Positions 2,682-57,697 of a stretch of DNA of 64,000 bases are shown here, piece after piece. The notes under the pieces are model-generated. The model was not told the origin of the DNA. It worked only from the letters and a program-made list of their open reading frames with translations, and did no database searches. Origin of the DNA: a virus. The translations under genes were made by a program, and so were the position numbers. The stretch is from IMG/VR virus record IMGVR_UViG_3300021197_001433, positions 5,384 through 69,383 of that record. One strand, 5' to 3'. Position 1 is the stretch's first letter, and every line of letters begins with the position of its first letter.

Positions 2682-3875
2682 CCACTGCCAATCATTTATT
2701 TGTTTGAGATCTTCTCCAGTTTTAGCAAACTCCGCTCCATCATTTGCTCCTCGTAGCACCCATTCACTATGGTCTCCGTGTGCATGTGTACACCACACTT
2801 CTAGTCTATGCCGTGTTTCAATGTCCACTTGTCCTGGTATACAACGACTTTGTAGTTTAGTACATTCACGAAATGCTGTGCGCCATGCACGATATGGATC
2901 CTCTGCAAAATGTGCAAATGCACTAAGTTCTGGGACAACTTGTATTGGAAAACTTGTAGTAAAGTCTACACCAAAATCATCTACTTCAGTGTTTAATAGT
3001 AAATCACAGTTATATAATATCACTCCCATTGTTCCATATTCTAGATCATTGCTCATGTTGCGAGCATTAAAAATGTAATGACTGGGTGTGCGCAATCTAT
3101 CAGGTAAAAAATCAAATCCGAAGTCTGGATTAATTTGTGTTTTTGCAAATACTGCAAAGTAATGATCTGTGTCACTTATCTCAGCCGCACGGCGTAGTGC
3201 ATTAAGTTGTCCTTCAACTCCGTGTAATCTCTTTGCCTGCGGATAGGATTTTTTTAGTATATCGTAGTTTAAATCGGCGTTTTTTTCGTCATAGGAAATG
3301 AACACTACATCTTGTGTCTTTTCATCTACTTTATAGTCAGTATGACGCAATATGTATGGGTAGTCATAGTACTGTGTCCGAAAATGCTGTTTACAGTCAC
3401 GTGGCACTAGTAGTACGCTACCGTTTGTGCCAAAGGCGTGTAGATTGCGTTTTTCCCATAAATTAGGTTGAAAATCAAATCGTGCATCACTGTAGTATAC
3501 CCAGTCATACATGTTGCCCAGTGTTGGTCTAGGCACACCATCGCTATGCCAGTTGATATGCTCGTACCAACCGAGAACCTTAAGGTCACCTGCTTGACGC
3601 TTAAAAGCGTCTACAGGTACTAAAAAAGTATCACCAAACTGTTGATCACCACTTGCCCAGCAGTGTATTTGTGTTGCTTCCCAGGGTACAGGTTGCCATG
3701 TAAAATCAAAGTCTGTGTAGTCACATAGATCACTTACAACCCATACATATTCTGTGGTTGCACGTTCTACTATGCGTTTGATAGTGGCTAGATGTGTATT
3801 GTTATAGCGTGTGTATTTTGTGTGTGCAGGCAGTTGTGCTGTACCGCCCATTTGCATGCAGTATATGTCAAACAT
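2649..3875 (-). CDS. Two-domain phage glycosyltransferase-like protein
   Basis: C-terminal half (DVVFISYDE...RLHGVEG...AWRTAFREC) resembles 16286..17200 (GT-A-like). ATG at 3875 overlaps the upstream stop; the ORF track starts at TTG 3890. Confidence 0.55.
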   Translation of the reverse strand: MFDIYCMQMGGTAQLPAHTKYTRYNNTHLATIKRIVERATTEYVWVVSDLCDYTDFDFTWQPVPWEATQIHCWASGDQQFGDTFLVPVDAFKRQAGDLKVLGWYEHINWHSDGVPRPTLGNMYDWVYYSDARFDFQPNLWEKRNLHAFGTNGSVLLVPRDCKQHFRTQYYDYPYILRHTDYKVDEKTQDVVFISYDEKNADLNYDILKKSYPQAKRLHGVEGQLNALRRAAEISDTDHYFAVFAKTQINPDFGFDFLPDRLRTPSHYIFNARNMSNDLEYGTMGVILYNCDLLLNTEVDDFGVDFTTSFPIQVVPELSAFAHFAEDPYRAWRTAFRECTKLQSRCIPGQVDIETRHRLEVWCTHAHGDHSEWVLRGANDGAEFAKTGEDLKQINDWQWLRSRFDSLYN

Positions 3876-33100: not shown

Positions 33101-36100
33101 CTGCAACAGCGGCGTTAGGTGCACCTATAACTACTGTGCGACCTTGATAATCACAATCTATAGCAAAACCATAGTTGTCACCAGTACTGGCATCAAACGG
33201 TACAAGCATATCGCTTAGTGCATAGTAATCTTCTTGTCTAATAACAACATCTAATCCGTTTGCAGGAGCAGCAACAAAAGTTATATCACTTCCGCTTATT
33301 GTAAAATCTTTAGTAGGCAAGTATACGTTGCCATTTTCGTCTGTAATATTAAGTGCAAGAATGTTAATTGGTGTAAAGCCTAGTGCAAAAACTTTAGTTG
33401 CACTAGCATCACCTGTAACAGTTTTTACTTCCTGACTGGATACAGGTATAGTTACCTGTGTATAACAATATATGTCATTGCTACCTGGAGCACCAACAAA
33501 CAAATATCTACCATTGCCGCTCATTACAACACTGGTTCCAAATTTATCACTAGCACCTAATCCTGCAGGACGTATTGCAGGACGTCTGTTAAATTGACCA
33601 CTACTATCAACATAGTAAATGAATACTGCACCTCTACCGCTTTGTGTTTCTGGTGCACCTACTGCAACATAGTCAACGCCTGCTGCAACGCTGTGTCCAA
33701 AACTATCAACTGAGTTACCAATTGTTGCAACTGCAAATGAGTTACCCTCTACTAGAACTCCGCCTTCACTGCGAACATATGGAGTAACCAGTCCATAACC
33801 ATTGTCTGGAGCGCCAACAATTGCAACAGTCGCACTTCTGTTTAGTGCTACACTTGTACCATATTTGTCGTCTGCATTAATACTAGCAGCAGTTTTTACA
33901 CCTGTTGTTGTCCAAGGTCTTGTATTTTGCAATACTTGCCATTTGCCGTTATTGTCCTTATCAACCCAAACAAGTTCTTTGTTATTCCAACCACTAACTG
34001 GAGTATATGTGCTTAAACTACTTGGTTGAGCAAAACGTACATTACTAAGTTTGTACATAGGAATGTTAATGTCAGTTATTTCTGCTTCTGTTTCAGCATC
34101 TACTATTGTAAACTTATTGGGTGCTGATACTTCAAAAATCTTTGCTACCTTACCAATTGGTTGTGCAGCGCGAATAATAACATAATCATCTTCAACAAGT
34201 CCATGATTTACATCTGTAGTGTAAATTAAATATCCATTGCCAGTACTTTCAACACTTGTAACTGTACTAAGTGTTTCATCAATTCTACGGATACTCCAGG
34301 TATTGGAATCATCAGTAGCAATCCAAATTTTCTTACCTTTGCCTAGTTCTTCAATTCTGTCGCTAAGTCCGAGTAGTTCACTGGTATTGAACACTGTAAA
34401 ATCTACATCATCTAAACGTGCATAACCTGCACTGTCTAAATCTTTGAGCGTATTTGTATTTGAATCTCGTACGGAGAAAACATCGCCCGTGTAGTTGTTG
34501 GGTTTTTTGTAAAGGTCTTTTTCTTGAACATGATAATGCCCAAGTTCAGTAGTGCTTGGCAAGTCACCAGCAGCATGATAATGCAATACAAAAGGATTAT
34601 TAGTTGCTTCTTGTTCTGGAATAATTGTTTCGATAATTTGGTTACTATCTATACTTCCATATTCACCAACACGGAATGCCCACTCTTCAAAATAATCAAT
34701 AGTTTGATCAAGGTTAGTAAGTTTGGCATCAATCAGTTTGTTAATTGCTGCACCTGTGCCTTTTTGTTTCAGCATACCCTGGTAGAACTTTACCTGACTA
34801 ACATCATCCAGTCCTAATCCTGCGAGATAATCTTTCTCGTTGAATCCAATTATACCTTTGCCTAGTTTGTCTACACCATCTTCTAAATTAAGATTATCAG
34901 TTTCAAAAAAGTCTTTAAACTGAGTTGCTTTGTTTGCAAGGTTTTTAACAAGCCCTGTCTTAATATTGTCTGCAACTGTCCAGTCATTATAATCAAATAC
35001 AGTGCTACCATCTACTGCATATTTTGCTACATAAGTAGTTCCTTGGAAACTAACAATATCGCCTTTCTTATAATCAGTATAGGTTGCCCAAACGTTAATT
35101 TTATCTTCGTTAATAAAGAAGCCAGGAGCATGCAGTGTGCCGTTCCAGTCGCCACTGCGAGCACCTATAAGTTTTAACCTGCTATGTCTATTACCCAATT
35201 CTGGCTGGTAGATAATATCATTAAAGATTGTTGTATTATTAAACACTAGTACATGTTCATGTTGGATAGGATCCAGTTGCACACTGTATAACTGTGTATT
35301 CTCTGCATCTACTTTAATTTCAATTACGTTATCTATTCTGCTTACATCATAGAACTTTGGATTAATAATACTTCCATTTGCATCTTTTATTTCACCATTG
35401 GTTCTAATGTCATCAATAGTAGCATATGCACGATTTAATGTAAGCGTATCACTATAAGGACTAATAACAATAACACTACCCAAGGGCCACTTTTGGTCTG
35501 TCCAAAAAGCAAATTCTTTGCCTGCACTGATAAAGTCGTTCTTTTCACCAACGCCTGTTGTGCCATCAAATACGAATCCACGACTTAGTAAGTACCTTTG
35601 ATAACTTACGAGGAAATCAAATACTTGTTGTCGATTTGTAATTATTGTGCCATAGGGTATATTTACAATACGATTTTCAAAGTCTTTATACTCGAGGTAT
35701 ACTGTTTCGCCAACGCTAACACGAGCAGGATCTGTGCCTTCACTACTAGGGATAATTTTAAAGAAAGGATTCTTAATATCATACCCTTGTATTTCATAGC
35801 CATCTGCTCGTTGAATAATCTGTACGCCACTGTATACAACACGCTCCAGAGGTAGACTCTTTTTAGTATAAATGTTAAGATCTTCGTCTGGTATAAAAAT
35901 GTTTTCACTTTGGCTGCTAGGTGTTACACTTTCAGCAACAACCTTAAGGTATTGCTTATCTGTAAAACCTGCCATACCATAGCAAAGGTTAAGTTCAAGA
36001 TTGTTAATTCTATTAATTGCATCATCTACGCTGAAGCCATTGTATCTTAAATATTCACTTATAAATTGATTGTAACCTTCTACTTCTTTGTGACTATGTG

Positions 36101-39100
36101 TATCATTATCTTCCTCAGCGCCGGTGGCTTGTCCATGTAGTTCGAAATCTACAATGCCAGGTCTGTAGCTCTTGAACTTTTGTAGTATTTGGTCATACTG
36201 TGCATTTTTTTCAAACAAGTTAGTATCAAACATAAGTGTGCCGTACTTTGCTGCTTTAATTGTTGCAGCAAGTATTTGCACTACATATGGATATTCACTA
36301 CTGCGCCTCCATGCAGTTTCACCAGGCGATCCATCACTAAATGCCCAATCGTCGCTGACATTTGTACTAAACGCATCTTGTACTAGGAATTCAGCAGGGC
36401 TACGAAGTTGTCCTTGTTCGTCAACAGGTATTATACTCATTAAATCTGGACGCTGTCGTCTTGTATCAATAGTAAATGTTGTGCCAGTTGCATCAGTGTA
36501 AACTTTTCCATCACGCAAATCTTCCCAGAGCACTGTGTTGCCACTTGTATAAGGAGCAACACCATAGCGTTGATCCCACCACAGTGGCTTTTCTTTAACG
36601 CCCAGCATTTGCCATGGCTTAGTGTGAGGGGTGTCTGTATCGAAGAACCAATTGTAAATTGCACGCCAATGACCTGGGATTCTGCTTCCATCTATTTTAT
36701 AAACACTGTTTCTATAGTTCCAAGTAAATGGATTGCCTGCTTCAACTGTATCATTTTTCTGCATTCTTACTTTGTTACGCAGAGCCCATTCACCAAAGTA
36801 ACTACGGATAATATTATTTGCTTCAGCAAAATCAGTAAGAGTGCTACGGAAATACCCAGGAACTACTTCTGTAATATCAAATAAGTCCTTGTTATACTGT
36901 GTCTTAATATTATTGAATATACGTTTTTCAAGTTCTAGTACAACGTTGTCTCTGATGTCGTCCCAGCCTATCCATACGCTGCCATCATGTCCTTGGATAA
37001 CAGTTTTTTCTACAGTATATGTATTATCAGCATACTTGTTTGGTATAAACTTTGGATACAATCCCATTGCACTAGGAGTTGGTGGAATAAAACTACCATG
37101 TGTATTTGTATATTCTACAATAGTAATTTTGTCATCTACACTTAAACCAATTAATGCAACATCTAAATTTGTTGTAGTAAGTACTACCTTTGCTTCTGTA
37201 GTATCAAATGTATAATCCTGTCCTTCAACAAGAAGGTTAGGAACGCCAGTGCTAATTGGTGTATGATATACTAGTACACCACGGCTGCCTATACTTGTAA
37301 GATCAAATTGGGTTGTAAATTCAAATTCAGTTTCTGCGGCATCATCAATAGTATACACTAGTTGTGATTTTTGATTTCCCCAGGGTACCATGTCGCTGAA
37401 GTAAAATGGGAAAGTACTAGTTTTTGTACCTGCCATAAACAACAGAATATCATCAACACACTTTGCAGGATCTGTCAAATCAAGGTCAAGTTTATTAATG
37501 TTATCAATAAATCTATTTTTAAATTTAGTATACTCATTCTTAACGAAGTTTATACTATCAATAGTGTTTGCTTCTGTATTGCTTAGTAGGTGCATTGGCA
37601 ATATCATGCCAGCACTGTGTTGTAATATATTACCGGGATATGCACGGAAGTTTGTATCACGTAGGTTACTTTTGCCAGGAGCAACACCAAGTAGAGTTTT
37701 AATTTGTCTACTAAGTTGTACAGCATGGTTACGCATTTGTCCCAGTGTTAGTGTGTCAAATGTTGCGTTGCCTGCATTGTTTTGTAGATTATCTGGTACC
37801 TCGTAAAAACTATTTGGTGATTTGTTTGCACTAATAAACTTGATAACAACCACATCATTTTCATTCAGCGCAGTTGTAAACACAACATATTCTCTATCCT
37901 GTTGTATTAAATGAGTGTAATCAGTTTTATATATAAACTGTCCATTTACACTTACCTGCAGCGGCTCTCTAATTCTACTAGTATCAACACTTGCACCTAT
38001 TTCAAAACTGTTTAGTTCATTTGCACTAACTTCATATGTAACAATCTGATACTGTGTACTATTTTCAATAGTTTTTGTCCAGCCATTGTATAGCACTCTA
38101 TTTCCGTCAATATCAAACTGATGTGCGTGTCCACTGCGTACAATTACATTTGTGTTACCTGTGCTTTTTGTATATTGGAATATATCACTATCAAAATTGT
38201 TTTCAAATACAATGTCACCAATTGTACTAAAGTTTTGATAACTTAATCCAAAGTTTAGAATTGCATCTGGACTATTGTTATTGTTACGCTTATAACTAAA
38301 CAGTTTGTTTCCAGTAAAGTTACTACTTGGATATTTTGTTGTGTCACTAAAACTAGTATGATCTGGATCAAATATATCAAACAATGGATCCTGATTTAGT
38401 GTTGTTTTTTGTTGTGCTTCAGTCCAAACAGTGTCATCTAAATAAAATTGTTTGCCCTGATTAGTTGCACCAAGTGTACTAAGCACACAGTTAGTGTCTA
38501 CAACTGTGCCTATATCAACAAGATTAATAATTTCAACTTTACCTGAGGTATTTCCTCCATCTGCACCAACAGTTGTACTATCTGCAAAAATTGATAGTGA
38601 ATCAGTGGTTGCTGCACTTTGATCTGCACTAATTATATCCACACGATAAATTTTTGTTCTAACATCAGTGTCTGTGTCTGCACTGAAGATCACTGTGCTA
38701 TCTTGCTGCAAATCAATACCATCAGCAAAATAACCTGGTGTGCCATTTACATTACTAAGTGCATCTGTTTGTGTTGTGTCTACTACAGTAACAGGAGCAA
38801 CACTAGTTGTTCCCATGTTGAATAATTCTAGTCCACTGTAAAATTCAATAATTGGACGTTTTGCTCTTGCAGTGTCATCTAAATCTGCAGTATAGTTGTT
38901 ATAAGTTGCTGTTGCTTCAATAACTTCTCTGTGGAACCAGCGATTGCCACGACTCCAAGCATTACGATCTGGACTTGCACGATTAATAGTAATGTAATCC
39001 TGATCTTTAGGAGCATTTAGTGTTCCGTCCCAGCCACCAGCATCATATGCTACTGAATCAAATCCATCACTGGTACTGTTAGTGTATTTTTCAGGTGTAA

Positions 39101-40559
39101 TCATTTCGTCAACTGCAACCAGTTGTATACCGCCTGGTTGTCCTACACCTTCAACATAGTATTCTCTGTCGCCATATAGTGCAGGCGTAACATTGCTGTT
39201 AAATTCTACTTTAAGTCCATTTGTAAATTTTACACTGTTTGCACTTGTAAATGATTGTTTATTGAGTATATCTTCTGTAACATTAATAGCGGCTGTAACA
39301 TCCTCATCTACAATTTGGATTTTACCAAACTGCAGTTCATTTGTTGCATCCTGATAATACAGTGTATTCAATCCTGCTGTATAGGGCTCTATTAGTTCTG
39401 GAACTCCACTGGCATTTTTATAGAATTCTCTATTACCATATAAGTTACCCTGTTTAATTTTAACTTTTTCTGCAACGGGCCAATCAGTGCTACGAGTAAG
39501 TTGAACTGTATCAACGCCACCAACTTTGTTTACTGCAATACTATATACATCATAGCGAACATCCACAGGCAGTGTAGTTGTTTCGTCCCAAGGATGATCG
39601 TCATCATCATATCCGTATGCGTCAAATGGTGCGCCCTGTTCCCAGTCACTTGCTACTGTACTAGGACTTACAAATACTAGTGTCTTTCCATCAATTTCTG
39701 TTTGTACATCAATGCCGCCATGTGTGTCAATCAGTGTTTGATAAGGTACATTGTGAATATCTTTGTATGCAAGATCAGTAGCAAAGTCAGGATTTGCAGC
39801 CTGTGTTGCGTTTATCATAATATTTTGTGCGTTAGTAGCAGGAACATTAAAGGTAATCGTTCCATTATCTTCGCCATTGTTAGTAAGTCCAAGTATTTTT
39901 CTTGTGCTTACATTACTTCCATAGTTACTAATGCCAGACAAGCCTGGTTCAGTTTGGATCCAAAATGGATGACCTGATTGTTGTACACTAAATGTGTAAC
40001 TACCGCCACGGGCAATTGTAATAGTTGGATTTTCGTTATCACTATTATCAATGCTGTATTCATCAACACCAGCAACTGTGCGTCGTGTAATAGCAAAATC
40101 TTTTTCCATATCGACGACACTGTTAAAAACTTGCACACTGTCAGGGCCTGCTGGCAACCAAAAGTATTCGCCATAGTTTACAAGTTTGTCTAAATCATTA
40201 AAACCACTGTAGTTGTAATATTCTTGGTCGTTAAGATCAGCATGTGTGTCAACATTTACATTATTGTATCTCAGTTGATTAATAAAGTCAATGTAACCAG
40301 TCAAACTTTCAATGCTTTTATTAGCACTGCGATAAACAACCGCAGGCTCAAGTTGATAATTTTGTCTATCTTTGTCTATCTCTTGGACATAACTATCTCC
40401 TACTTGAAAACTTGCTGCTTGCTGCCGACCAATATAACTGTTAATTCTTGTTAAATTAGGTTCACTGATTAACTGGTCAACAGTAGCGTTAAGAAACTTG
40501 TTGTTTTTATTAGTTTGAAATACGTCTGGTAATAAGACTTGACTTTTACGAAGTGCCAT
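27117..40559 (-). CDS. Giant (4480 aa) baseplate/structural protein with FG-GAP-like propeller repeats
   Basis: Uninterrupted 13.4 kb ORF directly after the gp6-like gene; repeated FG.SVA..VGAP motifs; G.GY..P.I domains. Confidence 0.8.
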   Translation of the reverse strand: MALRKSQVLLPDVFQTNKNNKFLNATVDQLISEPNLTRINSYIGRQQAASFQVGDSYVQEIDKDRQNYQLEPAVVYRSANKSIESLTGYIDFINQLRYNNVNVDTHADLNDQEYYNYSGFNDLDKLVNYGEYFWLPAGPDSVQVFNSVVDMEKDFAITRRTVAGVDEYSIDNSDNENPTITIARGGSYTFSVQQSGHPFWIQTEPGLSGISNYGSNVSTRKILGLTNNGEDNGTITFNVPATNAQNIMINATQAANPDFATDLAYKDIHNVPYQTLIDTHGGIDVQTEIDGKTLVFVSPSTVASDWEQGAPFDAYGYDDDDHPWDETTTLPVDVRYDVYSIAVNKVGGVDTVQLTRSTDWPVAEKVKIKQGNLYGNREFYKNASGVPELIEPYTAGLNTLYYQDATNELQFGKIQIVDEDVTAAINVTEDILNKQSFTSANSVKFTNGLKVEFNSNVTPALYGDREYYVEGVGQPGGIQLVAVDEMITPEKYTNSTSDGFDSVAYDAGGWDGTLNAPKDQDYITINRASPDRNAWSRGNRWFHREVIEATATYNNYTADLDDTARAKRPIIEFYSGLELFNMGTTSVAPVTVVDTTQTDALSNVNGTPGYFADGIDLQQDSTVIFSADTDTDVRTKIYRVDIISADQSAATTDSLSIFADSTTVGADGGNTSGKVEIINLVDIGTVVDTNCVLSTLGATNQGKQFYLDDTVWTEAQQKTTLNQDPLFDIFDPDHTSFSDTTKYPSSNFTGNKLFSYKRNNNNSPDAILNFGLSYQNFSTIGDIVFENNFDSDIFQYTKSTGNTNVIVRSGHAHQFDIDGNRVLYNGWTKTIENSTQYQIVTYEVSANELNSFEIGASVDTSRIREPLQVSVNGQFIYKTDYTHLIQQDREYVVFTTALNENDVVVIKFISANKSPNSFYEVPDNLQNNAGNATFDTLTLGQMRNHAVQLSRQIKTLLGVAPGKSNLRDTNFRAYPGNILQHSAGMILPMHLLSNTEANTIDSINFVKNEYTKFKNRFIDNINKLDLDLTDPAKCVDDILLFMAGTKTSTFPFYFSDMVPWGNQKSQLVYTIDDAAETEFEFTTQFDLTSIGSRGVLVYHTPISTGVPNLLVEGQDYTFDTTEAKVVLTTTNLDVALIGLSVDDKITIVEYTNTHGSFIPPTPSAMGLYPKFIPNKYADNTYTVEKTVIQGHDGSVWIGWDDIRDNVVLELEKRIFNNIKTQYNKDLFDITEVVPGYFRSTLTDFAEANNIIRSYFGEWALRNKVRMQKNDTVEAGNPFTWNYRNSVYKIDGSRIPGHWRAIYNWFFDTDTPHTKPWQMLGVKEKPLWWDQRYGVAPYTSGNTVLWEDLRDGKVYTDATGTTFTIDTRRQRPDLMSIIPVDEQGQLRSPAEFLVQDAFSTNVSDDWAFSDGSPGETAWRRSSEYPYVVQILAATIKAAKYGTLMFDTNLFEKNAQYDQILQKFKSYRPGIVDFELHGQATGAEEDNDTHSHKEVEGYNQFISEYLRYNGFSVDDAINRINNLELNLCYGMAGFTDKQYLKVVAESVTPSSQSENIFIPDEDLNIYTKKSLPLERVVYSGVQIIQRADGYEIQGYDIKNPFFKIIPSSEGTDPARVSVGETVYLEYKDFENRIVNIPYGTIITNRQQVFDFLVSYQRYLLSRGFVFDGTTGVGEKNDFISAGKEFAFWTDQKWPLGSVIVISPYSDTLTLNRAYATIDDIRTNGEIKDANGSIINPKFYDVSRIDNVIEIKVDAENTQLYSVQLDPIQHEHVLVFNNTTIFNDIIYQPELGNRHSRLKLIGARSGDWNGTLHAPGFFINEDKINVWATYTDYKKGDIVSFQGTTYVAKYAVDGSTVFDYNDWTVADNIKTGLVKNLANKATQFKDFFETDNLNLEDGVDKLGKGIIGFNEKDYLAGLGLDDVSQVKFYQGMLKQKGTGAAINKLIDAKLTNLDQTIDYFEEWAFRVGEYGSIDSNQIIETIIPEQEATNNPFVLHYHAAGDLPSTTELGHYHVQEKDLYKKPNNYTGDVFSVRDSNTNTLKDLDSAGYARLDDVDFTVFNTSELLGLSDRIEELGKGKKIWIATDDSNTWSIRRIDETLSTVTSVESTGNGYLIYTTDVNHGLVEDDYVIIRAAQPIGKVAKIFEVSAPNKFTIVDAETEAEITDINIPMYKLSNVRFAQPSSLSTYTPVSGWNNKELVWVDKDNNGKWQVLQNTRPWTTTGVKTAASINADDKYGTSVALNRSATVAIVGAPDNGYGLVTPYVRSEGGVLVEGNSFAVATIGNSVDSFGHSVAAGVDYVAVGAPETQSGRGAVFIYYVDSSGQFNRRPAIRPAGLGASDKFGTSVVMSGNGRYLFVGAPGSNDIYCYTQVTIPVSSQEVKTVTGDASATKVFALGFTPINILALNITDENGNVYLPTKDFTISGSDITFVAAPANGLDVVIRQEDYYALSDMLVPFDASTGDNYGFAIDCDYQGRTVVIGAPNAAVAGTDSTVFGDAGEVSIQSQVVQQFAGDGITKGFTTTEDLQTQIFVEVDGILQTETNNPDVPVDNDGSSEGFYTRSAKTITFKYTPASGARIVVYTGTFIEKQKIDQNITGQTVTEGEQFGYSVAVDSDATMVAIGSPGEDETNPNTGSVFIFQDTGKNYGTVTTNVPHAQTAGDTFYLNNKLITVSSSSDNPANLSGDILGASLPGVTSSVNSLGQVVITSTSTETNNKLTINPGSGQMFTRDDVFEIYKFTQKISHPQAFENENFGRTVAFDKNVEVGIGSNPGTRNLVIASDKASTMLAVGFDVEQDSNSEDYLEATTTYDSNGTTFTDRRTQSGAGYLYELLDSNVPTLANPSQMVFGQALKSTNVAALDQFGASAAFSDNRIFIGAPQDSGTYNNSGSVYEFNNNTRASSWATLRSQGDRVDVTQINRVALYNKKDGQIKVFLDYLDSTKGKIPGVAQSELSFVSHNDPALYAKWNYKQNNTLWWDTSTVHYLLSEQGELDFRTNYWNVAFPGSSIDVYEWIESPVPPEQYTGEGTVKDVNKFSTSVIYNNSSNSTQTYYYFWVSGRTDIPVEAEFRTISADSVTKLIEDPKAQGVPYIAIVDKNAIALYNCKQYFADSDVVLSVNYDVVKNEGVLHSEYELFGRGNVDQDIPARMYTKLVDSLAGSDSVGNLVPDPFLSEVEKYGVLTQPRQGMFVNRAAALKVLTQYCNSILVKAPFARLSSVSRLLSSENIPTVNSGEYNISVDSIAERDYLNTAILTTGYKVLVLEDETQSNYWAIYTLQEDKSYQLTNIQGYNTADYWDYATYYATGYDGTTVPKYQVTLEADLLTLTDAVTGDIAKVTSNDEGNFSMFVKTDTGWDEVVIERGTLQFNDSLYSFNTANSNFQATGFDNDAFDFGAFDKVPADEIRQIVDALKNDLFIGDYEINMNELFFRLMEYAINENNFSQDWLFKSSFITVAHKIRSLDQYNTFKFDNTNFIEDFINEVKPYKTKIREYVSKYDKVDTYGSDTTDFDIHSFYDENNLYFRKPSGDFAGDEILQTQGLNKPWSENYGYSLDSIEIVNAGSGYVTDPTITISAPDLADGVQATAVAITNGVEIVNVNMTNKGSGYTSEPTITVDGSAGSGLLLSPRLVNTTIRSFDTTIKFDRITYSSAIKDWTKNTAYVVDDIIAYQDTVTKTQEVYTCIVDFTSGSTFSIENTTGVTVLEVKADNDFTNAADRISAYYYPTSGMIGDDIELLQNGIGYGGTKITGPGFDQNPGFDSANFDVIGFDDIQIDDDGIAVISSIDTVFRGTDFDQAGIIGDVFVEPGYLPPGYLVELSLGVAPESIIVDGAGFVDTYNSHAPEELIPGRIFDTLDMEVYTHSSNDYEGDGNGAEIQYTSYTDPTGTLQTFSYGDPNKSEDDFVYLIVYINETRQFDFTNDGFRNNNIRLPNPLGPTDILHIYAFSQTGENMIGNYTYVGDGSTIGFVLPNVPERTQQTLIYVDGQEVGATFTTQDNRSLMTLSSVPNNGAHIHVFVFNQAEDRKAATKFATQTLETDGTTTLFGLSYMVEGYVEDGYLFGGAKAFYAPPGSANSVLEVDNKRIRPVNSVYHTADGSSLQFATPQTCGEGNIVFVGAISVAILRKDGTPALSAVRDIDYTISTGTQFVTMTTAPNEGDIVIVTDNTSADFTISLDGESMLMSADVPQTASSDIKLQAFSNHDPLRIQTKVYVGQGTGSTTIEDAFDEVNFDTAGFDRQVTSGTVGTYAIDRTATNVNHFWITVDGKRLHPGEFTVSGKNVIMSEAVQDTIGGSSVVIITHFTENIIQYPVGFRIFQDMNGNVEYLRLAKDNQTFVTETVEITDTKIYVEDASVLPFANVNASNPGVVFIGGERITYWEVSLEDNYITNLRRGTSGTGMLQRITPGFIVVDGSKDQELPDSTTHTKVWYDAGIHNTPANGLGIQQATTTNANFLREKQAQVPNYRLELNEKNYFAKDYVVTGYAEDLI

Positions 40560-52778: not shown

Positions 52779-53789
52779 ATGAGTTTGTTCAAACGGGCCG
52801 CCGTATTCACGGATATTCACTTTGGCAACAAGAGCAATAGCCAAACGTTTAACCGCGACTGTCTCGATTTTGTAACTTGGTTTTGTAAAGAAGCCAAGTC
52901 ACAGGGTGCAGACACTTGTATCTTTATGGGAGACTGGCATCATCAACGTGCGAGTATCAACGTTGCTACACTGAACTACAGTATAGAAGCACTGGAGTTA
53001 TTAAACACAACATTTGATACTATACATTTTATACCAGGCAACCATGATGAATACTACAGAGACAAACGTGACTATAACAGCATCGCGTTTATTAAGAAAT
53101 TTGAGAACATACAATTTTACAATGATATTACCACAGTTGATGGTGTAGCATTTATACCCTGGCTAGTTGGTGATGAACACAAGCAGATGCAGAAAATAAC
53201 TGCTGACTATGTAATTGGTCACTTTGAACTGCCTCATTTTTATATGAACGCTATGGTACAGATGCCCGATCACGGTGAACTAAGTGCAAATGACTTTGGT
53301 CGTTGCGGTACTGTGTTTACAGGACATTTTCATAAAAGGCAAGAACGTGAGAATGTTGTGTACACAGGCAACGCATTTCCTCACAACTACAGCGACGCTG
53401 GTGATGATGATCGCGGTCTAATGATACTGGACTGGGATGGAACAAGACAGTTTATTGCCTGGCCCGATCAACCCAAGTATCGTGTACTAAAAATTAGTGA
53501 TCTACTGGAAGGCCCAGAAAAGTATTTGAGTCCCAAGACTTATGCTCGTGTACACTTGGATGTGGACATCAGTTATGAAGAAGCAAACTTTATTAAAGAA
53601 ACCTTTATGCAAGAATATGGATTGCGTGAAATGAGTTTGATCCCTCTTAAAGTTGAGGACATGGACATGCAAATCTCAGGTGAGATTAACTTTGAAAGCG
53701 TGGACACTATTGTTACTAGTCAATTGCAACAGATTGATAGCGAACAATATGATACTAATCTAATGTTAGACATTTATAGGAACTTGTAG
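52779..53789 (+). CDS. gp47: Recombination nuclease gp47 (Mre11/SbcD-like)
   Basis: DIHFG, GDWHH, GNHD, GHFE and GHFH metallophosphoesterase motifs. Confidence 0.92.
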   Translation: MSLFKRAAVFTDIHFGNKSNSQTFNRDCLDFVTWFCKEAKSQGADTCIFMGDWHHQRASINVATLNYSIEALELLNTTFDTIHFIPGNHDEYYRDKRDYNSIAFIKKFENIQFYNDITTVDGVAFIPWLVGDEHKQMQKITADYVIGHFELPHFYMNAMVQMPDHGELSANDFGRCGTVFTGHFHKRQERENVVYTGNAFPHNYSDAGDDDRGLMILDWDGTRQFIAWPDQPKYRVLKISDLLEGPEKYLSPKTYARVHLDVDISYEEANFIKETFMQEYGLREMSLIPLKVEDMDMQISGEINFESVDTIVTSQLQQIDSEQYDTNLMLDIYRNL

Positions 53790-53801: not shown

Positions 53802-55565
53802 ATGTTTAAAATTGATACACTTACAGTAAAAAACTTTATGAGTGTGGGTAACACCACACAAGCAATTGACTTCAACCGCAATGACCTTACACTTGTGCTG
53901 GGTGAAAACTTGGACACAGGCGGCGGTGATGCTGGCAGTAGAAATGGTACTGGCAAGACCACTATCATCAATGCGCTAAGTTATGCACTATATGGCAATG
54001 CACTTACAAACATTCGCAAGGACAACTTGATCAACAAGACCAATGGCAAGAACATGCTGGTCACTGTGGAGTTTGAAAAAGATGGACTAAATTATCGTAT
54101 TGAACGTGGACGTAAGCCTAATGTGCTAAAGTTCTACATTAACAACAACGAACAAGAAACAGAGGATAACGCACAGGGCGATAGCAGAGAAACACAAAAG
54201 GCTATTGAAGAACTGTTGGGTATGAGTCACGACATGTTTAAACATGTGCTTGCACTAAACACATACAGTGAACCATTCTTAAGCATGAGACAAAACGATC
54301 AACGTGCTATTATTGAACAGTTGTTGGGTATTACTATTCTCAGTGAAAAAGCAGAGAAACTAAAAGAGATAGTGCGTGTAACTAAGAACAAGATTCAAGA
54401 AGAAGAATACCGTATCAAAGCAGTTGAAGATGCTAACGGCAAGATTGTAGAACAAGTTGATGCGCTAAAGCGCAGGCAGCGTATGTGGCAAGACAAAAAA
54501 GATCAGGACATTGCAAACTTTAAAACAGCAATCAATGATCTTAGTCATGTTGATATTGATGCTGAACTTAGAGCGCACACTGAACTTGCAGACTGGAACA
54601 CACTAAACAATGCACAGGTTCAACTACAAAAAGACATTGCTGCACTGCAGGCACAGGAAGGCAGAGCAGAGCGCGATGTTAAAAAAGCAAACAAGGCTCT
54701 AGTAGGTTGGCAAGACGGAGTGTGTCATAGTTGCAATCAAAGCATTACACACCTGGATAGTCATAAACAAGAGATTGAAAAAGCGGAGAAGGAACATGAC
54801 GAAGCAAATAATTTCCTTACAGAACTACAAACAGCAATTACAGATCTCAAAACTCAGCAAGAAACAGTCCCAAGCAAACCACGAACTTTCTATGATAGCG
54901 CCACTGATGCACACAACCATCGTTCAAGCCTATCCACACTGGAATCACAACTACAAAGTAAGCAAGATGAAAGTGACCCTTACACCGATCAGATAGCAGA
55001 AATGGAAACTACTGCAGTACAAGATATTACCTGGGATGCGATTAATGAACTTACTAGAGTACAAAATCATCAGGAGTTTTTATTAAAACTACTAACTAAT
55101 AAAGATAGTTTTATAAGAAAGCGTATTGTAGATCAAAATCTCGCTTACTTAAATACAAGATTAGAAGGATACTTGGGTGCAATTGGATTGCCACACAGTG
55201 TGGTGTTCCAAAATGATCTAAGTGTAGAAATACAAGAATTAGGACGAGATTTAGACTTTGATAATCTAAGCAGAGGCGAACGTAACAGACTTATACTCTC
55301 ACTAAGTTGGGCGTTCCGTGATGTTTGGGAAAGTTTATATCAACCTATAAACCTGTTGTTTATCGACGAACTAGTAGATAGCGGTATGGATTCAGCAGGT
55401 GTAGAAAATGCCATGGGCGTACTCAAGCGCATGAGCAGGGAAAGAAACAAGAGTGTTTGGTTGGTAAGCCACAAAGATGAACTAGTAGGTCGTGTAAACA
55501 ACGTACTCAAAGTTGTCAAAGAAAATGGGTTTACTAGTTATGACACTGATATTGAAATAGTATAG
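53802..55565 (+). CDS. gp46: Recombination ATPase gp46 (Rad50/SbcC-like)
   Basis: KNFMSVGN, NGTGKTT Walker A, coiled coil with CHSC hook, LSRGE signature, LLFIDE Walker B. Confidence 0.93.
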   Translation: MFKIDTLTVKNFMSVGNTTQAIDFNRNDLTLVLGENLDTGGGDAGSRNGTGKTTIINALSYALYGNALTNIRKDNLINKTNGKNMLVTVEFEKDGLNYRIERGRKPNVLKFYINNNEQETEDNAQGDSRETQKAIEELLGMSHDMFKHVLALNTYSEPFLSMRQNDQRAIIEQLLGITILSEKAEKLKEIVRVTKNKIQEEEYRIKAVEDANGKIVEQVDALKRRQRMWQDKKDQDIANFKTAINDLSHVDIDAELRAHTELADWNTLNNAQVQLQKDIAALQAQEGRAERDVKKANKALVGWQDGVCHSCNQSITHLDSHKQEIEKAEKEHDEANNFLTELQTAITDLKTQQETVPSKPRTFYDSATDAHNHRSSLSTLESQLQSKQDESDPYTDQIAEMETTAVQDITWDAINELTRVQNHQEFLLKLLTNKDSFIRKRIVDQNLAYLNTRLEGYLGAIGLPHSVVFQNDLSVEIQELGRDLDFDNLSRGERNRLILSLSWAFRDVWESLYQPINLLFIDELVDSGMDSAGVENAMGVLKRMSRERNKSVWLVSHKDELVGRVNNVLKVVKENGFTSYDTDIEIV

Positions 55566-55575
55566 GAGACATAGA

Positions 55576-55749
55576 ATGTCACACGAACAAATTGTAGAAG
55601 CATACGAAGCATATTTAAAAGAGAGCGAAGCATTTGAAACCAAAGGTGTAAAAGCCGCTGCTACTCGCGCCCGCAAGGCATTGGGCGATCTAGGTAAACT
55701 TAGCAAGTCACGACGCGCTGAGATTCAGGAAAAGAAGAACAATATGTAA
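55576..55749 (+). CDS. Histone H1-like (Hc1 family) small basic protein, 57 aa (not in ORF track)
   Basis: MSHEQIVEAYEAYLKESEAFETKGVKAAATRARKALGDLGKLSKSRRAEIQEKKNNM; KG.KAA.TRARKA motif; AGGAG RBS at 55564-55568. Confidence 0.8.
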   Translation: MSHEQIVEAYEAYLKESEAFETKGVKAAATRARKALGDLGKLSKSRRAEIQEKKNNM

Positions 55750-55770
55750 TTGTGCATATATACAGAGCAC

Positions 55771-56193
55771 ATGGAACCTTGGACTTATAATAATAAAATT
55801 GTAGAAGAACTACCCCAAGGTGCCGTGGGCTTTGTATATTTGATTACAAATACAACTAACAATAGAAAATACATTGGCAAAAAACTGGCACAATTTAAAA
55901 AAACTAAACCTCCCCTTAAAGGCAGAAAAAACAAAAGGCGCACTACTGTAGAATCAGACTGGCGCGATTATTATGGCTCATCAGACGAACTAACAGCAGA
56001 CATAGAACTTATAGGCAAAGAAAATTTTAAACGAGAAATTCTTTACTACTGTGAAAACAAATCACAACTAAGTTACATTGAAGCAAGAGAACAGTTCAAC
56101 CACAAAGTATTAGAATCAGACGAATATTACAACGGGCACATTAGAGTAAGAGTACACGGTAAAGGTATTCTCAATCGACAATTAAATGGCTAA
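55771..56193 (+). CDS. GIY-YIG endonuclease (Seg/EndoII-like, single domain)
   Basis: GFVYLITN..RKYIGKK, YYGSS, FKREIL, E..EQ, YYN; ATG at 55771. Confidence 0.85.
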   Translation: MEPWTYNNKIVEELPQGAVGFVYLITNTTNNRKYIGKKLAQFKKTKPPLKGRKNKRRTTVESDWRDYYGSSDELTADIELIGKENFKREILYYCENKSQLSYIEAREQFNHKVLESDEYYNGHIRVRVHGKGILNRQLNG

Positions 56194-56219
56194 CATAGTG
56201 TCATTATCAAATTAATTTA

Positions 56220-56571
56220 GCGTTTACGGTCTGCGCACTAAACCGTCATTGACACAAGTAAAACCAACTTTAGGCACAAAAGATAGCGGCTCTGAGAAAA
56301 AGCAACCGCAACTGGAAGCATATTGCTGTTATGATATGTGAAAGGTTCCGAGACTATTCAGTGAAGGCTGGAGTAGGGGGTTAGCGGGTTTCCGCCTCCG
56401 TACAGAAATGTAATCTTCTTATAACAGTGAGTGATGGACTAGTTAGATATTCATTCAATACTTCATCCGGAGACGGGTGAAGTATGAGCTCCGGTTCTGT
56501 TAGATAATCGCTACTTCGTAGTAAGAAAATAGTTCGAGCGTTAGCGAGAACTAGATGAACGTAGTTCATCT
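56220..56571 (+). ncRNA. Candidate large structured non-coding RNA or element downstream of the GIY-YIG gene
   Basis: At least 7 hairpins, two closed by GNRA loops (GAAA 56405-56408, GAGA 56470-56473); G-U pairs favour the + strand; possible pseudoknot; no credible ORF. Confidence 0.5.
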
Positions 56572-56802
56572 TTATAAGATGATTTGATTAGCCTCTTTGC
56601 TAAGTTTCATGTTATCTTCAATCACTTCGTTGAAGTATTTGTATTCGCTCAGAGGAAGTTCTAGAAGTTCCGCATAGGAAACACCACCGCGCATGTACCA
56701 ACATAATTGTGCTATAGTTTTTCTGATACGATTTACTTCTGTATCAAATCCTTCTAGTAGCCCCTCAATCTCAGGATTAGATAATGCTAAGAGGCGAATA
56801 CG
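56572..56802 (-). CDS. -1 frame extension (76 aa, gp51-like) of the gp26-like chaperone
   Basis: Open frame RIRLLALSNPEIEG...LCWYMRGGVSYAELL...IEDNMKLSKE begins at the slippery TTTTTTC (56808-56802); no start codon for its first 36 codons. Confidence 0.65.
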   Translation of the reverse strand, partial: RIRLLALSNPEIEGLLEGFDTEVNRIRKTIAQLCWYMRGGVSYAELLELPLSEYKYFNEVIEDNMKLSKEANQIIL

Positions 56803-57686
56803 AAAAAATTTGATTGGTCAAATGTAAATGGTGCAGTGTAACTGTGTCCACATTCATCGCAGGTATGATTTACATCTTTGCTAGGAATAGCCTTGTTAAT
56901 ATCATCTATCTTTGCTTTAATAACCTCAAACAACTGGCGTTCACTGTTTGTAACAAACTCCTGGATAAAATCTGTATCTATTACTGTATCACCTTCGGGT
57001 GTTACTATCCTTAGTATAGTACCACTTACGTTCCTTACAGTATAATTTGTCATAGTCTGAAATATTTTGTAGAATCTTTGCTGCTTATCTTCTTCGCTAA
57101 GTTCTGTATCATTTATCATAGTCACCATGCGTTGTTGTTCAAACTGTTCCAAATTTTGTGTGTTTACACTTTCATAATCGTTTGGTTTAAGAAAAATTTG
57201 CATGCCCTTGTATTCAAGTGGCTCCTGATATGCACTTAAATTTACAGGAAGGTCTAGGAAGTTTCGTAAATCCAGTTCATATTCATCCTGATTACTGCAT
57301 TGTGGACATGTACTAGTGTACTCCATCTTCTCACCATAACTTGCAATTCTGATAGCAATTAATATTGTATCTAAATCACATACTGGAATACACCAAGCGT
57401 TCTTAATGTTTGGCATACAACTGTGAATCATATCCACTACTGCTTGCCCATTCATAAGTGCATCCGGTGTGTTAATAGCAATTTCATCCTTGGTACTCAT
57501 AGGATATACGGGCAATTCGTTGTTTACAGTCATTTCTAGACTGTTCATAGCCCAATATTCGCCATTGCTGGGTAATTTAATATAGATTGCAGGTTGCCGC
57601 ATGTATTTTTGTAGCGGATTTGTGCGGTTTTGCATCTGTGCAAGTTGCTCAGGGTTCATCGAAAAGTTCTCAGGTACATCGACCAT
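56787..57686 (-). CDS. Baseplate hub assembly chaperone, gp26-like
   Basis: NPLQKYMRQP.IYIKLPS.G, PMSTKDE, DLDTILIAIRIASYGE, CPQC and CDEC; ATG at 57686 with GGAG RBS. Confidence 0.75.
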   Translation of the reverse strand: MVDVPENFSMNPEQLAQMQNRTNPLQKYMRQPAIYIKLPSNGEYWAMNSLEMTVNNELPVYPMSTKDEIAINTPDALMNGQAVVDMIHSCMPNIKNAWCIPVCDLDTILIAIRIASYGEKMEYTSTCPQCSNQDEYELDLRNFLDLPVNLSAYQEPLEYKGMQIFLKPNDYESVNTQNLEQFEQQRMVTMINDTELSEEDKQQRFYKIFQTMTNYTVRNVSGTILRIVTPEGDTVIDTDFIQEFVTNSERQLFEVIKAKIDDINKAIPSKDVNHTCDECGHSYTAPFTFDQSNFFVFAS

Positions 57687-57697
57687 GTTTTTCTCCA

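What the first reader, a model, noticed from the sequence alone, without database searches (positions are those of the whole stretch)
55771..56571. Stand-alone GIY-YIG nuclease followed by a ~350-nt densely structured non-coding element: candidate nuclease-RNA system
Seen: the only long intergenic gap in this gene-dense window is filled with stems. They are ACGGT/ACCGT (56226-56246), GCGG..CCGC around CTCTGAGAAAAAGCAA (56286-56309), CATATTG/TGATATG (56319-56338), GCGG-GTTT-CCGC (56384-56395), TACA-GAAA-TGTA (56401-56412) and the 12-bp ATACTTCATCCG-GAGA-CGGGTGAAGTAT (56458-56485). The loop CTGTTA (56326-56331) is complementary to TAACAG (56422-56427), giving a possible pseudoknot. A second CTGTTA (56497-56502) offers an alternative pairing. 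GNRA loops and G-U pairs indicate a + strand RNA, co-oriented with the nuclease. The nuclease (140 aa) has a basic insert but no evident separate DNA-recognition domain. Established: HEARO/OMEGA RNAs partner compact nucleases. Inference: this is an unrecognised ncRNA class, possibly a guide/scaffold for the GIY-YIG protein, or a ribozyme or replication/packaging RNA.
Basis: partly seen in the sequence, partly recalled or inferred. Interest (0 to 1): 0.85.

Follow-up and report, generated by a model that had tools for sequence, protein, structure and literature searches.

The report
Large knotted phage RNA behind nuclease gene
The gene-free stretch behind a small nuclease gene of this uncultured marine T4-like phage encodes a real, folded, knotted RNA of about 380 bases that belongs to a widespread but only partly catalogued phage RNA family whose job is still unknown.

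Summary
Window 56194-56571 (+) is a structured non-coding RNA. All six stems and the loop pseudoknot are at the stated coordinates. Relatives show compensatory changes: 19 of 53 pairs, 88% of cells paired against 39-47% in slid controls. The pseudoknot exists in four covarying versions.

It is not a wholly unknown class. A model of its core finds homologues behind the same GIY-YIG gene in 44 of 80 related IMG/VR loci. In 19 of 20 distant ones, Rfam Polynucleobacter-1 (RF01718) sits directly 5' of that core. The window's RNA is a variant without the catalogued domain, so Rfam finds nothing in it.

The 3' half shows one 8-letter word twice (GUUAGAUA, 56442 and 56499) around a GNRA hairpin. Two more conserved hairpins follow.

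Linkage to the nuclease is strong: 92 of 100 loci found by an RNA-only motif. It is not obligatory. Three loci have the RNA without the nuclease, one of them with a PD-(D/E)XK nuclease instead. Four are inverted. Melnitz has the nuclease alone. A guide or scaffold role is untested.

This scan has met the same family before on other DNA. Function remains unknown.

The parts
55576..55749 (+). 57-aa basic protein, Hc1 (histone H1-like) family, upstream neighbour
   Evidence: Pfam PF07432, E 1.5e-11. A homologue lies just upstream of the GIY-YIG gene in only 18 of 78 related loci, so it is not a constant partner.
55745..55854 (+). long hairpin that buries the GIY-YIG start codon (AUG 55771-73)
   Evidence: MFE -39.8 kcal/mol, z -6.54, 0 of 200 shuffles as good. 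The same hairpin appears in close relatives L002 and L008 but not in 7 more distant loci; L012 folds significantly but into a different structure.
55771..56193 (+). GIY-YIG nuclease, catalytic domain only (140 aa), with a basic beta-hairpin insert
   Evidence: Pfam SegE_GIY-YIG, E 4.2e-37. 40 invariant columns in 28 homologues. AF2 pLDDT 86.9. Best PDB fold is the I-TevI catalytic domain, prob 0.96 but E only 0.13.
56194..56571 (+). the structured non-coding RNA as a whole; it starts at the base after the nuclease stop codon
56198..56255 (+). 5' element: outer stem GUGUC/GACAC (56198-202/56251-55) enclosing ACGGU/ACCGU (56226-30/56242-46)
   Evidence: 4 of 5 outer pairs show changes on both sides in 10 relatives. 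By eye it resembles the last multi-stem of RF01718; this was not tested statistically.
56267..56374 (+). long-range stem 56267-75 with 56366-74, closing the core
   Evidence: RNAalifold. 81% of cells paired and 3 of 8 pairs changed on both sides. This is the weakest helix.
56286..56309 (+). hairpin H1, GCGG/CCGC with a 16-nt conserved loop
   Evidence: 3 of 4 pairs changed on both sides, 98% paired.
56310..56347 (+). hairpin H2: lower stem 56310-13/56344-47, upper stem 56319-25/56332-38, loop CUGUUA 56326-31
   Evidence: In the upper stem 5 of 7 pairs changed on both sides.
56376..56399 (+). hairpin H3: GGGGG/CCUCC with inner CGG/CCG; holds the family-wide ...CCGCC... motif
   Evidence: Nearly invariant. 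The homologous GGUACCGGAYRACCGCC was used as the RNA-only probe.
56401..56412 (+). hairpin H4, UACA-GAAA-UGUA, variable in length
   Evidence: Covaries. L002 carries a 39-nt insertion at this point.
56421..56427 (+). 3' strand of the pseudoknot; pairs with the H2 loop 56326-32
   Evidence: Four covarying versions: CUGUUAU/AUAACAG (window), AUAGUUA/UAACUAU (L012), CUUGAAC/GUUCAAG (L065, L072), CUAGCAU/AUGCUAG (L169). Read.
56442..56449 (+). twin word, copy 1 (GUUAGAUA)
   Evidence: L005, 91% identical over the first 336 nt of the gap (the twin words lie just inside that stretch), has GUAAGAUA in both copies.
56458..56485 (+). hairpin H5, 12 bp with a GAGA loop, between the twin words
   Evidence: The loop is GNRA in 11 of the 14 aligned relatives.
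56499..56506 (+). twin word, copy 2 (GUUAGAUA)
56511..56521 (+). small hairpin H6, CUAC-UUC-GUAG
   Evidence: Read from the sequence. Relatives have a GCUUCGC-type hairpin at this place.
56531..56552 (+). hairpin H7, AGUUC/GAACU around the invariant loop GAGCG-UUA-GCGA
   Evidence: In 64 distinct tails the stem is 5/5 paired in 51 and 4/5 in 12, with 25 distinct 5' strands. Mean is 4.78 pairs against 2.54 with shuffled partners.
56553..56571 (+). terminal hairpin H8, AGAUGAAC-GUA-GUUCAUCU, followed by UUUAU; probable 3' end
   Evidence: 34 distinct 5' strands among the 64 tails, which were selected for a perfect hairpin here. It was not called a terminator by the consensus scan, because the U-tract is too short.
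56572..56811 (-). -1 frame extension of the gp26-like baseplate hub gene (slippery A_AAU_UUU at 56811-56805); sets the right border of the RNA

Best explanation
Window 56194-56571 (+) encodes a structured non-coding RNA of about 380 nt. It belongs to a large RNA family of uncultured aquatic T4-like phages. The 5' third of that family is catalogued as Rfam Polynucleobacter-1 (RF01718); the rest is uncatalogued. The window's copy is a short-5' variant that lacks the catalogued domain.

Shown:
- The fold: a core closed by a long-range stem, with hairpins H1-H4 and a loop pseudoknot.
- A 3' module: word, GNRA hairpin H5, the same word again, H6, H7 with the invariant GAGCG-NNA-GCGA loop, and H8.
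- Homology to the RF01718-bearing RNAs.
- The position directly after the stop codon of a GIY-YIG gene.

Inferred:
- In this phage the RNA is made by read-through of the gp47-gp46-Hc1-GIY-YIG operon. No + strand promoter-like site lies in 55400-56900.
- It ends at H8.
- It acts as a free, stable RNA. The knotted core serves as a scaffold, and the two identical single-stranded words are the specificity element, read by base pairing or by a protein that binds twice. This is why both copies change together.
- The nuclease is a conserved operon neighbour rather than an obligatory partner.

I put the identity at about 0.9. I put the 'free RNA that displays twin words' mechanism at about 0.35.
For: Structure:
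- strand-specific folding.
- 19 of 77 alifold pairs are compensatory.
- 88% of cells paired against 39-47% slid; 0 of 500 shuffles reach the score.
- the pseudoknot occurs in four covarying versions.
- H7 and H8.

Family:
- Model R1, built from the window's clade, hits 40 loci on the + strand just behind the GIY-YIG gene and 4 on the - strand, of 80 IMG/VR loci.
- RF01718 passes its gathering score in 19 of 20 of the distant loci and ends where R1 begins.
- L169 has both RF01718 and a window-like core at 108 bits.

Twin words:
- Window 56442 and 56499.
- 52 of 52 parsed family members have identical 7-mers. A further 50 of the 102 sequences were not parsed by my strict pattern.
- A looser pattern that requires identity finds such a pair in 93 loci, with 8 different words.
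- L005 differs from the window by the same single letter in both copies.

Independence from the nuclease:
- RNA without GIY-YIG in L112, L138 and L169.
- inverted orientation in L020, L022, L027 and L033. L022 has TTGACA-17-TATATA upstream of the RNA.
- Melnitz, S-ShM2 and phiM12 have the nuclease but no R1 hit.

RNA-library contigs cover 56119-56480 and bridge the gene/RNA junction. This is weak evidence, because DNA carry-over is not excluded and the flanking genes are covered too.
Against: - No function is shown, and no reader of the twin words was found.
- The complement of the word is absent from the RNA and its flanks at any consistent position. The only small peak (18 + 3 of 93, G-U pairs allowed) lies in a conserved stem and does not covary.
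- The word does not match the first hairpin loop of the 5' domain.
- The word is not enriched in the window: 5 matches against 2.85 expected.
- GIY-YIG-RNA adjacency is conserved (92 of 100) while both outer flanks vary. This is more than mere neighbourhood would predict.
- In L138 another nuclease family fills the same slot. Both points fit a functional tie.
- Transcript ends are not known: the laid runs are contigs, not reads.
- R1 does not detect a third group of GIY-YIG-linked RNAs (L034, L043, L047 and others). I tie these to the family only by the shared 3' tail and by eye.
Confidence: 0.6

Rival explanations
1. Nuclease-RNA particle. The RNA binds the GIY-YIG protein, which has no DNA-binding domain. 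It scaffolds the protein or aims it, with the twin words acting as short guides for two nuclease monomers.
For: - GIY-YIG lies on the same strand, ending no more than 340 nt before the RNA-only motif, in 87 of 100 loci, and 5 more have one inserted gene between.
- The flanks outside the pair vary.
- The nuclease has only a catalytic domain plus a conserved basic hairpin.
- In L138 a PD-(D/E)XK nuclease (PF24608, E 5.6e-30) takes the GIY-YIG slot.
- The twin words are the only fast-changing single-stranded part.
Against: - The RNA occurs without any recognisable nuclease upstream in L112 and L169.
- The RNA is inverted, with its own promoter, in L022.
- The nuclease occurs without the RNA in Melnitz, cyanophages and rhizobiophages.
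- A word of 7-9 nt is very short for a guide.
- There are no mobile-element ends.
- The word is not depleted in the phage's own DNA.
Confidence: 0.12
2. Cis-acting 3' untranslated region. The fold only protects the operon mRNA from 3' exonucleases, terminates transcription between convergent operons, or tunes nuclease expression.
For: - The RNA starts at the stop codon and no + strand promoter-like site lies in 55400-56900.
- It sits at the 3' end of the operon even when a gene is inserted after the nuclease.
- It ends in a stable hairpin, H8.
- In the window it faces a convergent gene.
Against: - 380-500 nt with a covarying pseudoknot, invariant loops and twin words is far more than a stabiliser or terminator needs.
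- In L022 it is a separate unit with its own promoter.
- H8 lacks a proper U-tract.
- In most relatives the downstream gene is co-directional, not convergent.
Confidence: 0.12
3. DNA-level element. The conserved stretch is the homing target or landing pad of free-standing endonuclease genes, or an origin or recombination site with the twin words as iteron-like repeats. The RNA fold would then be secondary.
For: - Two unrelated small nuclease families occupy the same slot next to it.
- The nuclease lies on either side of it.
- The start-codon-burying hairpin resembles, from my recall of T4 biology, the translational control of T4 homing endonuclease genes.
- L073 looks like a deletion between the twin words.
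Against: - G-U pairs and strand-specific folding point to RNA, not duplex DNA.
- The covariation preserves pairing, not sequence.
- The GIY-YIG gene is near-universal and well conserved (72% mean column identity), unlike a sporadic selfish gene.
- There are only two repeats.
Confidence: 0.08
4. A ribozyme: group I-like, or a new self-cleaving or processing RNA.
For: Size, a pseudoknot, GNRA loops and invariant loops fit. One stretch (GUUCCGAGACUA, 56345-56) resembles, from my recall, the group I 'R' element.
Against: - No Rfam ribozyme or intron match even at E up to 10.
- There are no exons: the upstream gene ends in a stop codon and the downstream gene is convergent.
- The GUUCCG stretch is not conserved at that place in the wider family.
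- RNA-library contigs run through without joints in the RNA (table 5).
Confidence: 0.05

Closest known systems
Polynucleobacter-1 RNA motif (Rfam RF01718; Weinberg et al. 2010, Genome Biol 11:R31, PMC2864571; I saw only the table row in the main text)
   Same: Relatives of the window's RNA carry RF01718 as their 5' domain, directly after the GIY-YIG stop codon. The window's core is homologous to what follows RF01718. The motif comes from aquatic DNA, and its function is unknown.
   Different: The window's RNA does not match RF01718 at all. It keeps at most the last multi-stem. The published motif is 141 nt and is listed as a likely cis-regulator. Here it is the first third of a 400-500-nt RNA at the 3' end of an operon. 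A full-text search for the motif name found only the 2010 paper.
HEARO / OMEGA RNAs of IscB and TnpB
   Same: Both are a large structured RNA next to a compact nuclease gene.
   Different: There is no Rfam HEARO match. The nuclease is GIY-YIG, not RuvC/HNH. There are no transposon ends. There is no long variable guide, only twin 7-9-mers. The RNA also occurs without the nuclease.
Phage T4 stable RNAs C and D with the GIY-YIG gene segB in the tRNA cluster (recalled, not tested)
   Same: Both are T4-type phage small stable RNAs of unknown role, encoded beside a free-standing GIY-YIG gene. In cyanophage S-ShM2 a tRNA follows the homologous GIY-YIG gene.
   Different: No tRNA gene lies in the window or in 60 related loci. 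The size and fold are unrelated as far as I can tell. T4 itself was not examined.
I-TevI / Seg family GIY-YIG homing endonucleases (for the protein)
   Same: Pfam SegE_GIY-YIG. The best solved fold is the I-TevI catalytic domain. A hairpin buries the start codon in the window's clade.
   Different: The protein is only 140 aa with no linker or DNA-binding domain. It has an extra basic beta-hairpin. It is nearly universal in this phage group rather than sporadic.

Membership tests
Polynucleobacter-1 RNA (RF01718) | Match to the Rfam covariance model at or above 37 bits | tested here: not met
   There are 0 hits in the whole window at gathering, and no RF01718 hit at E up to 10 in 55500-57000.
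Polynucleobacter-1 RNA (RF01718) | Terminal multi-stem of the motif (an outer stem enclosing small hairpins) | tested here: inconclusive
   The window has GUGUC/GACAC enclosing ACGGU/ACCGU. This looks like the last element of the consensus. The judgement is by eye only.
Extended Polynucleobacter-1 / twin-word phage RNA (uncatalogued; name borrowed from earlier notes of this scan) | Core homologous to the sequence that follows RF01718 | tested here: met
   R1, built from the window's clade, hits RF01718-bearing loci exactly where RF01718 ends.
Extended Polynucleobacter-1 / twin-word phage RNA | Pseudoknot between the H2 loop and a downstream single strand | tested here: met
   56326-32 pairs with 56421-27, in four covarying versions. 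Earlier notes speak of two knots; I verified only this one.
Extended Polynucleobacter-1 / twin-word phage RNA | The same 7-9-nt word on both sides of hairpin H5 | tested here: met
   GUUAGAUA at 56442-49 and 56499-506. In the family, 52 of 52 parsed members have identical words, with 50 of the 102 sequences unparsed.
Extended Polynucleobacter-1 / twin-word phage RNA | 3' tail: hairpin with the loop GAGCG-NNA-GCGA, then a terminal hairpin | tested here: met
   56531-52 and 56553-71.
Group I intron | Match to the Rfam intron model, and flanking exons of an interrupted gene | tested here: not met
   No hit at E up to 10. The upstream ORF ends in TAA and the downstream gene is convergent.
OMEGA/HEARO guide RNA | HEARO model match, IscB/TnpB partner, long variable guide at a transposon end | tested here: not met
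   No Rfam match. The partner is GIY-YIG. Only twin short words vary.
tmRNA (one- or two-piece) | tRNA-like domain and tag reading frame | tested here: not met
   ARAGORN finds none in the window and Rfam finds none. The tmRNA of the related phage Melnitz is gene 86, elsewhere in that genome, while its GIY-YIG homologue is locus tag _43.
GIY-YIG nuclease, SegE type (the protein) | Pfam domain match and conserved catalytic-core residues | tested here: met
   PF19835 at 127.5 bits against a cut-off of 25. Y23, Y34, G36, R88, E104 and N121 are invariant in 28 homologues. Their catalytic roles are recalled from the family literature, not tested.

The most novel reading that the evidence does not exclude
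The twin words are short guides. The knotted RNA holds two copies of the GIY-YIG catalytic domain, which has no DNA-binding domain of its own, and aims them by base pairing at a nucleic-acid target. This would be an RNA-programmed GIY-YIG nuclease of phages, with the nuclease slot exchangeable, as the PD-(D/E)XK replacement in L138 suggests.
Probability: 0.05. Interest if true: 0.95.

Novelty: new variant of a known kind. Interest (0 to 1): 0.55.

Why it matters
An orphan Rfam motif from 2010, listed as a probable cis-regulator, turns out to be one optional domain of a much larger RNA. That RNA is multiply structured and conserved across many uncultured marine and freshwater T4-like phages. 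The window shows that the catalogued domain is dispensable. The part shared across all the groups I compared is the 3' module with the twin words. Large conserved RNAs of unknown function are rare. This one is tied to a phage DNA-metabolism operon and to a minimal nuclease. Finding what reads the twin words would reveal either a new kind of phage riboregulator or a new RNA-protein machine. No cultured phage record carries it by blastn, so the function has to be approached with synthetic constructs.

Tried and rejected
**Known RNA families.** I ran Rfam on the whole window and, permissively, on 55500-57000. Nothing relevant came up. The weak MIR4208 row is only the start-codon hairpin.

**tRNA or tmRNA.** None in the window, in Melnitz locus L082 or in 60 related loci. 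The Melnitz two-piece tmRNA is elsewhere in that genome.

**Coding potential.** The 62-aa - strand ORF 56381-56569 has no Pfam or PHROG match and is not kept in relatives. I rejected it.

**Group I, RNase P, tmRNA, T-box, CsrA-sponge, C/D-box and nut-site resemblances.** I considered these from memory. Each failed on Rfam or on non-conserved motifs. They are not claimed.

**Search for a cis partner of the twin words.**
- There is no exact complement at a consistent place. The G-U-tolerant peak at -110 lies in a conserved stem without covariation.
- There is no relation to the first hairpin loop of the 5' domain.
- The word is not enriched or depleted in the window.
- Many words contain UAA, UGA or UAG in one register, but the window's first copy, L012, L022 and L030 do not. 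I dropped the idea.

**Hc1-like protein as a constant partner.** It is present in only 18 of 78 loci. Rejected.

**Bacterial genomes.** The 17-mer scan returned 120 rows from unrelated, mostly high-G+C genomes. I did not follow them, and they say nothing about Polynucleobacter.

**Cultured phages.** blastn found no homologue of the window gap or of two other RNA types. This covers that collection at that sensitivity only.

**RNA-library contigs.** Parts without cover, and depth, tell nothing. No start or end could be read.

**PDB.** The sequence search for the nuclease gave no hit. Foldseek gave only weak E-values.

**Other limits.**
- One search had a coordinate bug and too narrow a pattern. 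I discarded its counts.
- The MAFFT alignment of 107 wide-family sequences was too poor for RNAalifold. I used it only for the consensus sequence.
- Supplements of the 2010 Rfam paper, which may describe the gene context of Polynucleobacter-1, were closed.
Full report
**Context.** The window is part of a 69-kb IMG/VR virus record of a T4-like myovirus. On the + strand lie gp47 (52779-53789) and gp46 (53802-55565), the SbcCD-like recombination nuclease. They are followed by a 57-aa Hc1-like basic protein (55576-55749) and a 140-aa SegE-type GIY-YIG protein (55771-56193). On the - strand a gp26-like baseplate hub gene runs towards them. The closest cultured relative of the nuclease is in the OM43 phage Melnitz (64% identity).

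**The observation.**
- The + strand of 56194-56571 folds better than all 100 shuffles (z -2.67).
- The - strand does not (z -0.63).
- The gap is conserved at 69-91% identity in nine related contigs found through the nuclease.
- An alignment of ten copies gives an RNAalifold consensus of 77 pairs, 19 with compensatory changes.
- I wrote a structure from the window's stems plus the pseudoknot and counted it on a structure-independent MAFFT alignment of 14 copies:
  - 88.0% of cells pair, against 39-47% with partners slid.
  - 19 of 53 pairs change on both sides, against 8-13 slid.
  - 55 cells change on both sides, against 12-21 slid.
  - No shuffle of 500 reaches the score.
- The structure came from these sequences, so this control is generous. 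The many double changes in H1, H2 and H4 are nonetheless plain.
- The pseudoknot between the H2 loop and 56421-27 exists in four mutually compensating versions (read).
- G-U pairs and GNRA loops fit only the + strand.

**What it belongs to.**
- Rfam finds nothing in the window.
- A covariance model of the window's core (R1) finds homologues in 44 of 80 nuclease-seeded loci. Forty are on the + strand just behind the nuclease and 4 on the - strand just in front of it.
- In the distant ones Rfam reports Polynucleobacter-1 (RF01718) at 62-100 bits in 19 of 20 loci. It starts right after the nuclease stop codon and ends where R1 begins.
- The orphan 141-nt motif of Weinberg et al. 2010 (PMC2864571; table row seen) is therefore the 5' domain of a 400-500-nt RNA.
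- The window's clade lacks that domain, as do L013, L065, L072, L038, L049, L029 and the inverted loci (0 of 10).
- L169 bridges the two: it has RF01718 plus a window-like core at 108 bits.
- A third group (L034, L043, L047, L060 and others) has a different 5' part and core that R1 does not detect. It shares the 3' tail by blastn and by eye. I count it as probable kin only.

**The 3' module.**
- After the pseudoknot the RNA shows the word GUUAGAUA twice, at 56442-49 and 56499-506, on either side of the 12-bp GNRA hairpin H5.
- Relatives have other words, always the same in both copies. Examples are AGAUGAU, UGCGAAUAG, AGAUAAU, GGAUGAA, ACAUGAA, GCAUAAAG and ACCACAGAG.
- In 52 of 52 family members parsed by a strict pattern the 7-mers are identical. 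My pattern did not parse 50 of the 102 sequences.
- L005 is 91% identical to the window over the first 336 nt of the gap. It has GUAAGAUA in both copies, so one change was made twice.
- Behind the second word come a small hairpin (H6), an A-rich stretch, and then H7. The H7 loop GAGCG-NNA-GCGA is invariant, while its stem takes 25 different sequences in 64 distinct tails. The stem is 5/5 paired in 51 of them, with a mean of 4.78 pairs against 2.54 with shuffled partners.
- A terminal hairpin, H8, has 34 different stems.
- I noticed the paired words before consulting earlier notes. The label 'twin' is borrowed from those notes.

**Relation to the nuclease.**
- An RNA-only 17-mer from H3 retrieved 118 viral loci.
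- Of the 100 with at least 719 nt upstream, 87 have the GIY-YIG gene on the same strand ending no more than 340 nt before the motif. Five have it about 1.05-1.1 kb upstream, with one extra gene between in the two I looked at. Eight have none.
- Of those eight, five are not the RNA at all (no R1 hit).
- The other three are real RNAs without the GIY-YIG gene:
  - L138 keeps the window's gp46-Hc1 context but has a PD-(D/E)XK endonuclease (PF24608, E 5.6e-30) in the slot.
  - L112 has an unknown 175-aa protein upstream.
  - L169 has a winged-helix protein and an opposite-strand ORF upstream.
- In L022 the RNA is inverted and preceded by TTGACA-17 nt-TATATA. There it is its own transcription unit.
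- Conversely, Melnitz, cyanophage S-ShM2 and rhizobiophage phiM12 have the nuclease but no R1 hit.
- The pair is thus a very stable module whose outer flanks vary, but neither member strictly needs the other.
- The nuclease keeps all its conserved core residues. It models with pLDDT 86.9 as an I-TevI-like catalytic domain (prob 0.96, E 0.13) with a basic beta-hairpin insert and nothing else.

**Expression.**
- No + strand promoter-like site lies in 55400-56900, and H8 is not a consensus terminator.
- Contigs of four RNA libraries from three studies cover parts of 56119-56510. Two of them bridge the nuclease/RNA junction.
- The neighbouring genes are covered as well, and DNA carry-over cannot be excluded. 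This is only compatible with transcription.

**How it most likely works.**
- Shown: the fold, the family, the position and the concerted twin words.
- Inferred: read-through transcription and an end at H8. The result would be a stable RNA whose core is a scaffold and whose two identical single-stranded words are read by a partner that needs both.
- I could not find that partner.
- Rivals are the RNP with the nuclease, a purely cis-acting 3' UTR, a DNA-level homing or origin element, and a ribozyme. They are weighed in their own sections.

**Novelty.**
- The family is partly known (RF01718). Its full extent, its link to the GIY-YIG gene and its twin words are, as far as my searches show, not in print. 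One search finds only the 2010 paper, and one search finds nothing relevant among 6 papers, judged from the listing only.
- This scan has already reported the same family on other DNA.
- This window adds three points. The catalogued domain is dispensable. The 3' module is the part shared across the groups compared. The nuclease slot can be filled by another nuclease family.

Noticed in passing
window 56572-57689 (- strand); slippery site 56805-56811: The gp26-like baseplate hub gene carries a conserved -1 frameshift signal, A_AAU_UUU. The zero frame stops 7 codons later, and the -1 frame stays open for 79 codons, to 56572. The same layout occurs in 35 related loci: the heptamer plus the next two bases (UU) is invariant, the zero frame stops after 4-9 codons, the -1 frame is open for 78-80 codons, and the peptide KFFRIRLL... 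is conserved. The arrangement resembles the tail-chaperone frameshifts of other phages (recalled). A paper search found nothing on it for T4-type gp26; I read the listing and passages of one paper.
   Followed up: partly
window 55745-55854 (+): A strong hairpin (-39.8 kcal/mol, z -6.54) buries the start codon of the GIY-YIG gene. It is shared by close relatives L002 and L008 but is absent from 7 more distant loci; L012 folds significantly but differently. From recall, it resembles the translational control of T4 homing endonuclease genes.
   Followed up: partly
L138 8819-9385: In an otherwise syntenic locus (gp46, Hc1-like gene, X, RNA) the GIY-YIG gene is replaced by a phage PD-(D/E)XK endonuclease (PF24608).
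   Followed up: partly
L022 2380-3010 (- strand): The RNA is inverted relative to the nuclease gene and preceded by TTGACA-17 nt-TATATA. Its twin word is ACCACAGAG.
   Followed up: partly
L073, about 3700-3760: This copy of the RNA has one word only and lacks H5, the second word and H6, as if the DNA between the twin words had been deleted.
   Followed up: no
L034, L043, L047, L055, L060, L071 and others, the 500-700 nt after the GIY-YIG gene: A third RNA type sits behind the same nuclease. It has a different 5' part and core (for example ...GGGAAAGGUCAGAGCCC...) but the same twin-word and tail module. Neither R1 nor Rfam detects it.
   Followed up: partly
window 27117-40559 (- strand): A single open reading frame of 4480 aa lies in the structural region of the phage.
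   Followed up: no
window 55576-55749: A phage-encoded Hc1 (chlamydial histone H1-like) protein of 57 aa lies between gp46 and the nuclease.
   Followed up: partly
L201 (S-ShM2) 2476-2927: In this cultured cyanophage the homologous GIY-YIG gene is followed by a tRNA-Arg. The tRNA overlaps two annotated hypothetical CDS, which may therefore be spurious.
   Followed up: no
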